A stretch of DNA of 58,036 bases from Sphingomonadales bacterium. GTDB taxonomy: Bacteria; Pseudomonadota; Alphaproteobacteria; Sphingomonadales; Sphingomonadaceae. The first letter of the stretch is position 1. Each line of letters opens with the position of its first letter. The stretch covers positions 1 through 58,036 of the forward strand of contig JBBQTM010000001.1 in the NCBI GenBank assembly GCA_038234545.1, in the 5' to 3' direction. Position numbers and translations under genes: made by a program. The notes under the pieces were generated by a model that searched no databases, was not told the DNA's origin, and worked only from the letters and a program-made list of their open reading frames with translations. Below are positions 12-5,328 of this stretch, in pieces.

Positions 12-866
12 ATGCGTAATTATTTGCTTGCCGCCGTGGCAGCCGCTGCGCTGACCTCGCCGGCCATGGCCCGCGATAAGTCGACGTACGTTGGTATTTC
101 GGGCGGCGTCATGCTCGTCGAAGATACCAACCTTGACTACAACGATGGCTTCGATCCGGAAATCCGCGACGCCGTCACCATCGATCATAAAACTGGTTTC
201 GATGTCGACCTGCACGCCGGCTATGACTTCGGTCTGGTCCGTGCCGAGGCCGAAGTTGCCTACAAGCGCGCATCGATTGACGAGGTTCAGCTCGACACCG
301 CCTTCGTTCCATCGACCAACCCGACCGAGCCGTATGACGCCGATGGCAAGGTCAGCGTGTTCTCGCTCATGGCGAACGTCCTGTTCGACTTCGGCGACGA
401 AGACGGCTGGAGCGGTTTCCTCGGAGCCGGTGCCGGTTATGCCCGCGTCAAGTATAAAGCCGACATCGCGGTTCCGCAGTTCCAGGGCGACATTGGCGTC
501 ACCGACAGCGACGGCACGATTGCCTGGCAGGTTCTCGCCGGAATTAAGAAGGCTGTTTCGACGAACATCGACCTCGGCCTGAAGTATCGTTATTTCAACG
601 CCAGCAAACTCAGGTTTGGTGACAATGACGACGGCGGGGAGCAATTCTCGGGTCGTTTCCGGTCGCACAGCCTGCTGCTGACGCTGGATTACAACTTCTA
701 TACCCCTGAAGCGCCGCCGCCTCCGCCGCCGCCGCCCCCGCCCCCGCCGCCTCCGCCGCCCCCGGCGACGCAGACGTGCCCGGACGGTTCGGTGATCCTG
801 GCGACCGACGCTTGCCCGCCACCGCCGCCGCCGCCGCCGCCGCCGCCGGAGCCGGAGCGCGGCTAA
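12..866 (+). CDS. Outer-membrane beta-barrel protein (OmpA-like transmembrane domain) with double poly-Pro C-terminal tail
   Basis: GGGAG SD at the window start; Sec signal peptide (MRNYLLAAVAAAALTSPAMA); alternating beta-strands (HAGYDFG, AWQVLAG, LGLKYRYF); barrel ends LLLTLDYNF; then about 17 Pro, TQTCPDGSVILATDAC, about 11 Pro, EPERG. Confidence 0.85.
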   Translation: MRNYLLAAVAAAALTSPAMARDKSTYVGISGGVMLVEDTNLDYNDGFDPEIRDAVTIDHKTGFDVDLHAGYDFGLVRAEAEVAYKRASIDEVQLDTAFVPSTNPTEPYDADGKVSVFSLMANVLFDFGDEDGWSGFLGAGAGYARVKYKADIAVPQFQGDIGVTDSDGTIAWQVLAGIKKAVSTNIDLGLKYRYFNASKLRFGDNDDGGEQFSGRFRSHSLLLTLDYNFYTPEAPPPPPPPPPPPPPPPPPATQTCPDGSVILATDACPPPPPPPPPPPEPERG

Positions 867-872
867 GGGCTT

Positions 873-897
873 CCCCGCAAAGTATTACTTTGCGGGG
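873..897. other. Perfect 12-bp inverted repeat just after the OMP stop codon
   Basis: CCCCGCAAAGTA-T-TACTTTGCGGGG. Confidence 0.75.
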
Positions 898-957
898 GCC
901 CCTAAGCGAACGGCCCATGACGGACTGGTAAGATAGTCCGATCCAAGGCAACAATTG

Positions 958-986
958 GCCCGCCGGAGCAATCCGGCGGGCTTTTT
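958..986 (+). terminator. Rho-independent terminator of the OMP gene
   Basis: GCCCGCCGGA-GCAA-TCCGGCGGGC followed by TTTTT. Confidence 0.85.
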
Positions 987-1110
987 GTATGTTTTGATCA
1001 GGGCGCGTCAGTCGGAGGAGCAGTGGGACGAAACGTAGAATAACGGCTAGGCCCAAACGGTTATTATCTTCATTGGGTGCTCGGCGGAACGTTTGCGACC
1101 GTGACTAGAG

Positions 1111-2901: not shown

Positions 2902-2956
2902 CGGTCTCTCCGTCTTCGCTTTAAACCCGCCTAGCACGTCTTGAGAATGAAGCGGA

Positions 2957-3946
2957 TCAGCGGGAAGAAACTGGCCCATTTGCGCCTTGGTGACGCGGAT
3001 GGAATAACGCATTGCCCGTGCCGGCTTCAAAGATCAGGTTCTGGAACAAGAACTTTTCCAGCACGTGGTAGAGCAGTTGACCGTTGCGCATCAGAACGTC
3101 TTCCGCACCCAGTGCCAACAGGTCCTGACGTGCCGACATGACTAACTCGCGATAAATGGGAATTCCGGAATCGTCGGTCTCGAATCGGCTCCAGGCGGCG
3201 TTCCATCCAGCAATCAGCCGGTCAAGTCGCGCCCGAACCGCCGGGAACTGGGGCGCATCAATCGCCAAATCGACCAGATCGCCAACGTGGCACCGTAACT
3301 CCCACGAGGACATGATCTTCGGAAAATTATATCGCTCATAAACCAGTTCGCGCTTGCCCGCGCCCGAAGGCATGAGGGCAGACCCGTTTGTATCTGCGGA
3401 TGACGACCGCTCGGGATTGATCAGATCCCACAACCGTTCGCCCCCGACCGTGTCGAAGACCAGGTGCACGCGCTGCGCGGAACCGCGGTTGTGGACGTGG
3501 TGCTTTCGAAACGTGTCAAACACCCATGCTTCGCCGGCAGCCATGTTGACGGTCTGGTCGCCGCAGGTGAAATCGACATCGGGATTGGTGATCACCGGAA
3601 TATGGAGGCGAATGTGCGTGCGCCAATAATAATTGTTATCGATATGCTCCGGGACAATTGCGTTCGCACCCAGGCCCATCAGCCGACTGCGCCCCCACAC
3701 TGCGCCGATCTCCGCCATCAATTCCATCACATAAGGGCAGCGAAGCAGATATTCGGTCGGCGCCATCGGACCAACGAATTCGTTGGTCAGTTGCCCAGCG
3801 GGAGTGACCAACGGCACCGCTTCGTTTCCCGGGAAACGCTGCGGATGCGGTATCCAGGCCGATGGCGGCAAGGCCCGGACTTCCGCGGCGAGCGTATCCG
3901 CGCAGAACCCGATCGGGAGCTTGATCAGCGGCCTGTCAAAATGCAC
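2957..3946 (-). CDS. Aspartyl/asparaginyl beta-hydroxylase-domain 2OG-Fe(II) oxygenase with C-terminal extension
   Basis: HxD (EHIDNNYYW), RLHIPVITN, distal His (HHVHNRG), RVHLVFD 2OG-binding Arg; about 130 extra C-terminal residues. Confidence 0.85.
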   Translation of the reverse strand: MHFDRPLIKLPIGFCADTLAAEVRALPPSAWIPHPQRFPGNEAVPLVTPAGQLTNEFVGPMAPTEYLLRCPYVMELMAEIGAVWGRSRLMGLGANAIVPEHIDNNYYWRTHIRLHIPVITNPDVDFTCGDQTVNMAAGEAWVFDTFRKHHVHNRGSAQRVHLVFDTVGGERLWDLINPERSSSADTNGSALMPSGAGKRELVYERYNFPKIMSSWELRCHVGDLVDLAIDAPQFPAVRARLDRLIAGWNAAWSRFETDDSGIPIYRELVMSARQDLLALGAEDVLMRNGQLLYHVLEKFLFQNLIFEAGTGNALFHPRHQGANGPVSSR

Positions 3947-4115
3947 CTGCTTGATCTCCGTAAATGACGCGCGAGAAGCTGGCGTGCGCCGATTAATCAG
4001 TACTTGCTTACGCTAGTCAAAACAATCAAGTTGCGGGTGTGCCTGCCGTACGAAACGGGCCGACAGGGCGGGCAAGGCAATGGCCGGCATCCGCCGGGTG
4101 CCGACCGGGATCGTC

Positions 4116-4739
4116 ATGATAATTTCACACCTTCACAAGTTCATCTTTGTCGCGGTCCCCAAGACCGGGACGCATTCGGTACGGCAAGCCCTGCGCGAGC
4201 AAATGGGCGACGAGGATATCGAGCAGGTCGGTCTGTTCGTTGCCAAGAAATTCCCTGAGCCGGAGCTTGCCAAGCTGCGCCATGGCCACATCACACTGAG
4301 ACAAGTGCAACCGTTTCTCGCGGCGAGCGATCTTCGAGCCTATTTCAAGTTTGGCTTCGTTCGGAATCCGTTCGACCGGTTTGTCTCTTACTGCGCGTTC
4401 ATGACCCGCGATCAAGACGTTTTCGAACGCCAACCGCAGTCGGTGATGCGCCACCTGCTATTCGAAGCTCCGCCACATCATCACATCTTGTTTCAGTCCC
4501 AGCACCAATTTCTGGTCGGGACGGACGACGCCCTGCTGAGCGATTACGTCGGTCGGGTCGAGGAGATGCAGGAGGGATATGATGAGATTTGCGAACGAAT
4601 CGGTATCTCCTCGCGGCCGCTCGATAAGGTCAACGGTTCGCGCCGTGGCAATTACCGCGACTATTATGACCAGCAATTGATCGATGGAGTGGCGAAGCTC
4701 TACGCTCGCGACTTAGAGCTTTTCGGCTACGATTTCTAA
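4116..4739 (+). CDS. Sulfotransferase family 2 protein
   Basis: FIFVAVPKTGTHS PAPS motif, FVRNPFDRFVS, C-terminal YARDLELFGYDF; start re-picked at ATG 4116. Confidence 0.88.
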   Translation: MIISHLHKFIFVAVPKTGTHSVRQALREQMGDEDIEQVGLFVAKKFPEPELAKLRHGHITLRQVQPFLAASDLRAYFKFGFVRNPFDRFVSYCAFMTRDQDVFERQPQSVMRHLLFEAPPHHHILFQSQHQFLVGTDDALLSDYVGRVEEMQEGYDEICERIGISSRPLDKVNGSRRGNYRDYYDQQLIDGVAKLYARDLELFGYDF

Positions 4740-4752
4740 CAGAGAGCGGTTT

Positions 4753-5328
4753 ATGCATCCCAATCCTCGAAAGACGAATGCGGTTCGCACGCTTGGTATG
4801 ATCGACATCGTCCAGCTGCGCGAAGCGGTGCTGGCGCTGCCTCAAGAGGTCTGGGACGCGGAAAACGCCGCCAAGCCGAACCGTTTCGACGCCCTGGATA
4901 GTACACGTCACATCATCTTTCGGTTCGTCACGAAACTGTCCGACTGGCGGGAATCGTATGACGGGCAGCTGTGGGAGGAATGGCGGCCCCTGATCCAGCC
5001 AATCCTTGCTGCGGCGACTGCTGATTATGGGTATAAGTCTGGGGCATTCCCGCGCGTCATGCTTGCCAATATGGCGCCCGGCGGAGTGATTCATCCGCAT
5101 CGCGACACCAACCGTGCCGCGAAATGGCCGCATAAAATTCACGTGCCCCTTGTGACCAACAATCAGGTGGCTTTCTACATCGACGATGTCGCATATCACT
5201 TTGCCGAAGGCGAAGCGGTCGAAGTCAACAACATGGCGACGCACGCGGTCACCAATAATGGTGCAGGCGATCGCATCCATCTGATCTTCGAATATTTCGA
5301 TCTCGATCAGACGATCCCGTTTGAATGA
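4753..5328 (+). CDS. Aspartyl/asparaginyl beta-hydroxylase-domain 2OG-Fe(II) oxygenase
   Basis: PGGVIHPHRD (HxD), KIHVPLVTN, GEAVEVNN..HAVTNNG..DRIHLIF. Confidence 0.88.
   Translation: MHPNPRKTNAVRTLGMIDIVQLREAVLALPQEVWDAENAAKPNRFDALDSTRHIIFRFVTKLSDWRESYDGQLWEEWRPLIQPILAAATADYGYKSGAFPRVMLANMAPGGVIHPHRDTNRAAKWPHKIHVPLVTNNQVAFYIDDVAYHFAEGEAVEVNNMATHAVTNNGAGDRIHLIFEYFDLDQTIPFE

What the first reader, a model, noticed from the sequence alone, without database searches (positions are those of the whole stretch)
12..5328. Candidate hydroxylate-then-sulfate modification system beside a poly-proline outer-membrane protein
Seen: two divergent two-gene units, each pairing an Asp/Asn-beta-hydroxylase-type 2OG oxygenase with a sulfotransferase (2957-3946 with the TPR-sulfotransferase 1111-2901; 4753-5328 with the family-2 sulfotransferase 4116-4739). 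They lie directly downstream of a beta-barrel OMP ending in about 17 and about 11 prolines, and look less GC-rich than the backbone. Known: this oxygenase family includes protein Asp/Asn hydroxylases and proline 3-hydroxylases; PAPS sulfotransferases need a hydroxyl acceptor; TPRs bind protein partners. Inference: the oxygenases create hydroxyls (e.g. hydroxyproline) that are then sulfated, with the OMP tail as a plausible substrate. A lipid or small-molecule substrate is equally possible. No PAPS-synthesis genes are in the window, and the enzymes lack obvious signal peptides, so modification would have to precede export.
Basis: partly seen in the sequence, partly recalled or inferred. Interest (0 to 1): 0.8.

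Follow-up and report, generated by a model that had tools for sequence, protein, structure and literature searches.

The report
Inserted hydroxylase-sulfotransferase block beside membrane barrel

Summary
The five genes are real, the catalytic motifs are intact, and the proline runs are 17 and 11 long. The OMP-tail link fails. The four enzymes are a low-GC3 block inserted into the spacer between the OMP and an L,D-transpeptidase gene; five close orthologous loci lack the block. The tail is a multi-copy tag found in 150 of 151 genus genomes, while the second oxygenase is in 21 of 151. The two-pair reading is half right. ST2+OXY2 is a near-obligate pair (79 of 80 loci). OXY1 normally pairs or fuses with a different sulfotransferase. 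Where all four enzyme types co-occur, 16 of 18 loci hold a TonB-dependent receptor; the window has one 4.9 kb away. The TPR enzyme resembles tyrosylprotein sulfotransferases and would need no hydroxylase. A sister clade of it sits beside OMPs whose loops carry 6-10 tyrosines, against 0-5 in 45 others; this OMP has 2. Best reading: a displaced receptor-linked cassette that likely modifies barrel loops (0.4). A small-molecule or glycan substrate remains open (0.3). Hydroxylate-then-sulfate was predicted in print in 2010. This scan noted both the cassette and the tail before, on other DNA.

The parts
12..866 (+). Outer-membrane beta-barrel protein (PF13505) with signal peptide; neighbour of the block, probably not its specific client
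   Evidence: orthologues without the enzymes
714..863 (+). C-terminal tail: Pro17, two-Cys segment, Pro11, ending ERG; genus-wide multi-copy tag (4 copies in this genome)
957..982 (+). Terminator-like hairpin after the OMP, conserved in relatives that lack the block
1090..5345 (.). Inserted low-GC3 block (approximate ends) that splits the ancestral OMP to L,D-transpeptidase spacer
1111..2901 (-). TPR-fused sulfotransferase (PF13469), closest solved relatives tyrosylprotein sulfotransferases
2957..3946 (-). OXY1: Fe(II)/2OG oxygenase (PF05118; H101, D103, H149, R159 invariant) with a helical C-terminal domain
4116..4739 (+). ST2: PF03567 sulfotransferase with invariant PAPS-binding motifs
4753..5328 (+). 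OXY2: small Fe(II)/2OG oxygenase (PF05118; H116, D118, H164, R174 invariant), near-obligate partner of ST2
5425..5982 (+). L,D-transpeptidase (YkuD), the OMP's ancestral downstream neighbour
10219..13353 (+). TonB-dependent receptor between xseA and clpB; candidate client
   Evidence: cassette context in relatives
13482..15305 (-). TPR-fused 2OG-Fe(II) oxygenase (PF13759), a further member of the receptor-linked set

Best explanation
The four genes are an inserted, intact piece of a TonB-receptor-linked tailoring cassette whose cytoplasmic enzymes likely modify the future surface loops of outer-membrane barrel proteins before export, and probably not the polyproline tail. Shown: intact motifs, the insertion, the gene pairings, the receptor link in relatives, and PAPS genes in the genome. 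Inferred: the TPR enzyme would bind an unfolded barrel precursor and sulfate tyrosine directly from PAPS, with no hydroxylase needed. OXY2 (and OXY1) would hydroxylate an amino-acid residue with Fe(II), 2-oxoglutarate and O2, and ST2 would sulfate the new hydroxyl. The likeliest client here is the receptor at 10219-13353 or another barrel; no substrate is shown.
For: All four enzyme types co-occur in 18 of 80 OXY2 loci, and 16 of the 18 hold a TonB receptor within 7 kb; one more is cut by a contig end and one has the window's arrangement. Of 93 TPR-sulfotransferase rows from the genus, 61 neighbour a receptor and 10 a tailed OMP. In other genera of the order, 17 of 29 loci show a receptor within 1.5 kb. 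In three genus relatives the set lies with a receptor between xseA and clpB (L128, L129, L132), where the window keeps a receptor and a TPR oxygenase. The top PDB match of the TPR enzyme is tick tyrosylprotein sulfotransferase 8w5z (E 4e-9), with human TPST1 and TPST2 also listed. OMPs beside the sister clade have 6-10 loop tyrosines (9 proteins) against 0-5 in 45 others. Among OMPs newly found by sequence alone, 4 of 6 testable Tyr-rich ones and 0 of 17 Tyr-poor ones have the enzyme next door. Precedent in print: RaxST is reported to sulfate tyrosines of the outer-membrane protein Omp1X (PMC4892823, passages).
Against: No substrate is shown. ST2+OXY2 occurs in 52 of 80 loci with no receptor, OMP, TPR enzyme or OXY1 nearby: 36 of 80 lie at prfC and 24 of 80 in paa clusters. 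The closest solved relatives of both oxygenases act on small molecules, and neither has a TPR. PF03567 is built mostly from carbohydrate sulfotransferases (PMC11625862; top folds heparan sulfate 6-O and 2-O sulfotransferases, Z 10.3 and 10.0). The second-best PDB match of the TPR enzyme is CurM, a polyketide sulfotransferase (E 1.4e-7). The Tyr-rich OMPs form one clade, so they count as about one event. The window's own OMP (2 loop Tyr) and receptor (Tyr fraction 0.027, against a mean of 0.049 for 45 enzyme-adjacent receptors of another subfamily) are not Tyr-rich. The block is 4.9 kb from the receptor, beyond purD and xseA.
Confidence: 0.4

Rival explanations
1. The oxygenases and ST2 make or tag a small molecule, glycan or lipid (hydroxylate, then sulfate), perhaps a ligand of the receptor or an imported compound; proteins are not substrates.
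For: Top solved relatives are free L-proline cis-4-hydroxylase 4p7w (E 5.5e-9 and 2e-8), proline 3-hydroxylase 1e5r and a nucleoside-antibiotic hydroxylase 7v4f. OXY2 has a weak hit to lipid A hydroxylase LpxO (E 4.6e-5, far under the cut-off). ST2 is of the carbohydrate-type family. ST2+OXY2 stands without any barrel gene in 52 of 80 loci. The authors of the CciT-CciO study favour small-molecule models for a receptor-dioxygenase pair (PMC12004947, passages).
Against: No biosynthetic scaffold gene recurs beside the enzymes in the loci read. This reading does not explain the TPR domain, the TPST likeness or the Tyr-rich loops. By fold, OXY1 is tied between the small-molecule hydroxylases and AspH (Z 15.8, 15.6, 14.9).
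Confidence: 0.3
2. The window's own OMP is the TPR enzyme's client through its surface loops, and the insertion beside it was selected.
For: Tail-to-tail placement of a TPR-sulfotransferase and a tailed OMP arose twice on both trees. In G109 the same region ends in two TPR-sulfotransferases at a contig end, and the orthologous OMP ends another contig; the join is not shown.
Against: This OMP has 2 loop tyrosines, like orthologues with no enzyme next door. The closest TPR enzymes in G074 and G076 sit at a receptor locus instead.
Confidence: 0.14
3. One reading: the oxygenases make hydroxyproline in the OMP's polyproline tail and the sulfotransferases sulfate it.
For: The best solved matches of both oxygenases are proline hydroxylases, and the two basic residues aligned with their conserved arginines are kept. 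A genus-wide tail could be modified in trans. TPR-sulfotransferase homologues are in 127 of 151 genus genomes.
Against: Those proline hydroxylases act on free proline. The tail is in 150 of 151 genus genomes but OXY2 in 21 of 151. 52 of 120 other genomes of the order have the TPR enzyme and 0 of 120 show the tail. The tail lies in 1 of 80 OXY2 loci, and on 0 of 49 enzyme-adjacent receptors. None of the 8 relatives' loci with an OMP beside a clade-ii TPR enzyme shows OXY1, OXY2 or ST2 in about 8-11 kb read.
Confidence: 0.08

Closest known systems
Predicted beta-hydroxylase plus sulfotransferase neighbourhoods (Iyer et al. 2010, PMC2938197; passages and section 11 read, Figure 4 and supplement not seen)
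   Same: Same enzyme families and the same proposed logic: hydroxylate a surface protein, then sulfate the hydroxyl. The paper also notes TonB receptors beside other dioxygenase and sulfotransferase clusters.
   Different: There the proposed substrates are collagen-like or tail-collar proteins, with phytanoyl-CoA-hydroxylase-methyltransferase fusions. I saw none of these in the window. Here the recurring partners are TonB receptors and 8-stranded-type OMPs. Neither case is shown by experiment in what I read.
Tyrosylprotein sulfotransferases (tick 8w5z, human TPST1/2) and Xanthomonas RaxST
   Same: Best PDB matches of the TPR enzyme's catalytic domain; the PAPS loop and the Glu, Lys and Ser positions line up (their catalytic roles are recalled). 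RaxST is reported to sulfate an outer-membrane protein.
   Different: N-terminal TPR domain; no RaxX-like peptide or type I exporter seen nearby; low identity; activity untested.
L-proline cis-4-hydroxylase (4p7w), proline 3-hydroxylase (1e5r), and human AspH
   Same: PF05118 fold with Fe and 2OG ligands intact.
   Different: About 15-23% identity in structure alignments. OXY1 and OXY2 carry His-x-Asp and no TPR, whereas AspH has a TPR and (recalled) binds iron by two His only. OXY1's helical C-terminal domain does not superpose on the proline hydroxylases' (Foldseek rmsd 14.6 over the whole chain).
CciT-CciO of Caulobacter (PMC12004947, passages)
   Same: A TonB receptor that depends on a co-conserved cytoplasmic 2OG dioxygenase; mechanism open.
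   Different: A different dioxygenase family, and the paper's main text has no occurrence of the word sulfotransferase.

Membership tests
PF05118 Fe(II)/2OG beta-hydroxylases (OXY1, OXY2) | Profile score over cut-off; His-x-Asp...His iron triad and 2OG-binding Arg | tested here: met
   59 and 50.7 bits against 22.6; ligands invariant in 29 and 46 sequences
True AspH (protein Asp/Asn hydroxylase) | TPR domain joined to the oxygenase | tested here: not met
   No TPR hit in OXY1 or OXY2; AspH only at E 0.1-0.6 by profile. A TPR-fused PF05118 protein exists in relatives and was not found in this 63%-complete genome
Proline hydroxylases (cis-P4H, P3H) | Hydroxylation of proline | not testable with these tools
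   Best matches by sequence and fold, but tied with AspH and 7v4p
PAPS sulfotransferases (TPR enzyme, ST2) | 5'-phosphosulfate loop and 3'-phosphate motif; sulfotransferase fold | tested here: met
   PF03567 consensus motifs in PMC11625862
Tyrosylprotein sulfotransferases (TPST, RaxST) | Catalytic-site residues aligned with TPST | tested here: met
   Alignment to 8w5z, E 4e-9; roles of the residues recalled
Tyrosylprotein sulfotransferases (TPST, RaxST) | Transfers sulfate to peptidyl tyrosine | not testable with these tools
   Only indirect: Tyr-rich loops beside the sister clade
Iyer 2010 hydroxylase-sulfotransferase operons | Beta-hydroxylase gene linked to sulfotransferase gene | tested here: met
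Iyer 2010 hydroxylase-sulfotransferase operons | Co-encoded collagen-like or tail-collar protein and phytanoyl-CoA hydroxylase-methyltransferase | tested here: inconclusive
   None evident among the window's ORFs, judged by eye; the families were not searched over the incomplete genome
Receptor-linked TPR hydroxylase/sulfotransferase cassette (unpublished kind, noted earlier by this scan) | OXY1, ST2, OXY2 and a TPR-sulfotransferase together with a TonB receptor | tested here: met
   All four present; receptor 4.9 kb away rather than adjacent
Dedicated OMP-tail modification system | Conserved linkage and co-occurrence of tail and both enzyme pairs | tested here: not met

The most novel reading that the evidence does not exclude
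Bacteria run a widespread, animal-like protein-decoration pathway on outer-membrane barrels. TPR-guided tyrosylprotein-sulfotransferase homologues, each tied to a client barrel gene, sulfate clustered tyrosines in future surface loops before export, while paired oxygenases and sulfotransferases add hydroxy-sulfate marks. The OMP clade with Tyr-clustered loops is a concrete, testable client.
Probability: 0.3. Interest if true: 0.8.

Novelty: new variant of a known kind. Interest (0 to 1): 0.42.

Why it matters
If right, sulfated and hydroxylated barrel loops would be an overlooked surface modification of common soil and water bacteria, with possible effects on ligand binding or phage adsorption. 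The best-known bacterial precedent I found is RaxST. The small OMP with clustered loop tyrosines and its neighbouring enzyme make a two-gene test that is much easier than the 1000-residue receptors. For this window alone the value is lower: it is a displaced copy of a cassette that this scan has seen before, and the striking OMP-tail link looks like a by-product of a recent insertion.

Tried and rejected
OMP tail as substrate: rejected on linkage and co-occurrence. OXY1 plus TPR enzyme as a conserved pair: rejected. Absence of PAPS synthesis: only true of the window. A paa-pathway role for ST2+OXY2: not favoured, since the pair is at paa in 24 of 80 loci and at prfC or receptor islands elsewhere. 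NCBIfam gave no family over cut-off for the four enzymes. Sequence searches of the PDB with single OXY2 and ST2, and with the ST2 profile, gave nothing useful. Foldseek for ST2 had no match at E 0.001 or better, though the weak rows were all sulfotransferases. OXY1's C-terminal helical domain was not searched alone. No sigma-70-like promoter was found. The careful tree did not finish; the quick tree was used, unrooted, and no one-clade test was run. No complex prediction was obtained, so binding between ST2 and OXY2, or between TPR and tail, is untested. Literature searches that found no description of this cassette or tail: (open-access library only; papers, 83 other than the four read were seen as listings only). 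Rows dropped: TPR enzymes under 430 aa; the misaligned row L236; L360 (contig end) in the Tyr-rich count; 7 of 28 OMP loci had under 800 bases downstream. Expression was not examined.
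Full report
Observation. Pfam gives PF13505 for the OMP, TPR plus PF13469 for 1111-2901, PF05118 for 2957-3946 (OXY1) and 4753-5328 (OXY2), and PF03567 for 4116-4739 (ST2). 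The proline runs are 17 and 11. Iron and 2OG ligands are invariant in OXY1 (29 sequences) and OXY2 (46 sequences), and the PAPS motifs of ST2 are invariant in 41. GC3 of the four enzyme genes is in the lowest 2-7% of 1076 script-called genes. The genome, 63% complete, has cysD and cysNC on C58. The genus is probably Sphingomicrobium, inferred from record titles among the close OXY2 relatives.

The block is an insertion. Close OMP orthologues in G074, G137, G076, G140 and G114 (63-80% identity) are followed directly by the L,D-transpeptidase gene with no enzymes between. The G074 spacer aligns in two pieces, to the window just after the OMP and just before the transpeptidase, which puts the block at about 1090-5345. 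Only G094 (80-93% identity) has the window's arrangement. Of 28 further OMP loci, none shows an enzyme within 1.5 kb, though 7 have little downstream DNA.

The tail is general. It is on 4 proteins of this genome: two OMPs, a TonB receptor and the 3' end of a probable one. A five-row profile finds it in 150 of 151 genus genomes, usually in several copies, and in 0 of 120 other genomes of the order (a narrow profile may miss diverged forms). OXY2 is in 21 of the same 151. The TPR enzyme's catalytic domain has close homologues in 52 of those 120 other genomes. The tail follows the last barrel strand, so it should be periplasmic (recalled for OmpA-type barrels).

True pairings. ST2 lies with OXY2 in 79 of the best 80 GTDB loci (269 relatives were found, and some loci repeat genus genomes). 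Contexts are prfC in Lysobacterales-type loci (36 of 80), paa clusters (24 of 80) and receptor islands (19 of 80); 52 of 80 have no receptor, OMP, TPR enzyme or OXY1 nearby. Full-length OXY1 orthologues (13 loci in 12 of 60 relatives) are fused to their own PF13469 sulfotransferase in 4 loci and beside it in 3; none is beside a TPR enzyme. All four enzyme types meet in 18 of 80 loci, 16 with a TonB receptor. In three genus relatives the set sits with a receptor, a TPR-AspH and a TPR-PF13759 oxygenase between xseA and clpB. The window keeps a receptor (10219-13353) and the TPR-PF13759 gene there.

The TPR enzyme follows barrels. Homologues are in 127 of 151 genus genomes. I read the loci of about 80 of the 150 listed matches, best first. 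Of 93 rows, 61 neighbour a receptor and 10 lie tail-to-tail with a tailed OMP; the OMP label needs two changes on the quick tree, and two on the OMP tree. None of 49 enzyme-adjacent receptors carries the tail. In other genera 17 of 29 loci show a receptor within 1.5 kb and none an OMP of this family. The larger OMP-linked group has 6-10 tyrosines in predicted surface loops (9 proteins) against 0-5 in 45 other OMPs; the window's OMP has 2. Among OMPs newly found by sequence alone, 4 of 6 testable Tyr-rich proteins and 0 of 17 Tyr-poor ones have the enzyme next door. These proteins are one clade, so this is about one evolutionary event and the p-value overstates it. The enzyme's best PDB match is a tick tyrosylprotein sulfotransferase (E 4e-9), then CurM, then human TPST1 and TPST2.

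What the oxygenases and ST2 resemble. By profile both oxygenases are closest to free L-proline cis-4-hydroxylase (E 5.5e-9, 2e-8), with AspH at E 0.1 or worse. By fold, OXY1 (pLDDT 84) is tied among 4p7x (Z 15.8, rmsd 3.0, 186 aligned), 7v4p (15.6), AspH (14.9) and 1e5r (14.8). The ST2 model (pLDDT 92.5) is closest to heparan sulfate 6-O and 2-O sulfotransferases (Z 10.3 and 10.0, rmsd above 4). None of this fixes the substrate.

Mechanism. Most likely (0.4) the block is a displaced part of the receptor-linked cassette and modifies unfolded barrel precursors in the cytoplasm: direct tyrosine sulfation by the TPR enzyme, and hydroxylation then sulfation by OXY2 or OXY1 with ST2. Enzyme identity, pairing and linkage are shown; substrate, order of steps and timing are inferred. 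Rivals are a small-molecule, glycan or lipid substrate (0.3), this OMP's loops as a selected client (0.14), and the hydroxyproline tail (0.08). The ST2-OXY2 half is the weakest part of my reading, since it usually stands without a barrel gene.

What is known. Iyer et al. 2010 (PMC2938197; passages and section 11 read; Figure 4 and supplement not seen, and they may list receptor-linked cases) already predicted hydroxylate-then-sulfate for such neighbourhoods, on collagen-like or tail-collar proteins. RaxST is reported to sulfate Omp1X (PMC4892823, passages). CciT-CciO shows a receptor that needs a cytoplasmic dioxygenase (PMC12004947, passages). PF03567 is biased to carbohydrate enzymes (PMC11625862, passages). 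Searches found no description of this cassette or tail in the open library. Earlier notes of this scan describe the receptor-linked cassette and the tail on other DNA; they are not independent evidence. Genus tallies include unpublished genomes G020, G105, G129 and G301; one of the 13 OXY1 loci (G020) and one control OMP (G105) come from them, and no conclusion depends on them.

Verdict. Real and intact, a new variant of a predicted kind. The headline link to the polyproline tail is not supported. The useful new lead is the Tyr-clustered OMP clade beside TPST-like enzymes. Interest 0.42.

Noticed in passing
L169, L170, L171, L172, L175, L192, L202, L220, L343, L346, L347, L354 (OMP beside TPR-sulfotransferase): One OMP clade has clustered tyrosines in loop 1, and in a subgroup also loop 3 and a Cys pair, and lies tail-to-tail with one clade of TPR-sulfotransferases in at least three chromosomal contexts; candidate sulfotyrosine clients.
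   Followed up: partly
window 714-863; G000 C7:26552, C26:7040, C29:19405: The Pro-Cys-Pro-ERG tail is a multi-copy tag on OMPs and TonB receptors, in 150 of 151 genus genomes and 0 of 120 others; function unknown, perhaps a periplasmic tether.
   Followed up: partly
window 5425-5982 and L231, L233-L236: The tailed OMP is ancestrally followed by an L,D-transpeptidase gene in this lineage; in other alphaproteobacteria such enzymes tie barrels to peptidoglycan (recalled).
   Followed up: no
L142, L143, L147 and rows with 40-86 aa frames: Several tail matches lie in short open frames, which may be frameshifted barrel ends or free-standing tails.
   Followed up: no
L037:2188-8510, L038:9867-16236: An OXY1-sulfotransferase fusion is followed by a DUF4915 gene and a TonB receptor, downstream of an ahcY-like gene.
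   Followed up: partly
L009, L031, L033, L035, L039, L041: OXY1 or its fusion sits at or near the rplL-rpoB region in several genomes, an apparent insertion hot spot.
   Followed up: no
L043:8813-10598, L045:7835-9272: Other PF05118 oxygenases are paired with a small gene that looks like a sulfotransferase by motif but has no Pfam hit.
   Followed up: no
L128, L129, L132 (about 105-aa ORFs near clpB): One or two small exported proteins with no Pfam hit sit among the TPR enzymes in the receptor island; alternative substrates.
   Followed up: no
window 42506-43450: A 315-aa ORF with GC3 0.47, far below the genome's range; probably a recent foreign gene.
   Followed up: no
G000 C28:17894-18727: An exported protein has an internal Pro run followed by the same ERG end motif, not at its C-terminus.
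   Followed up: no
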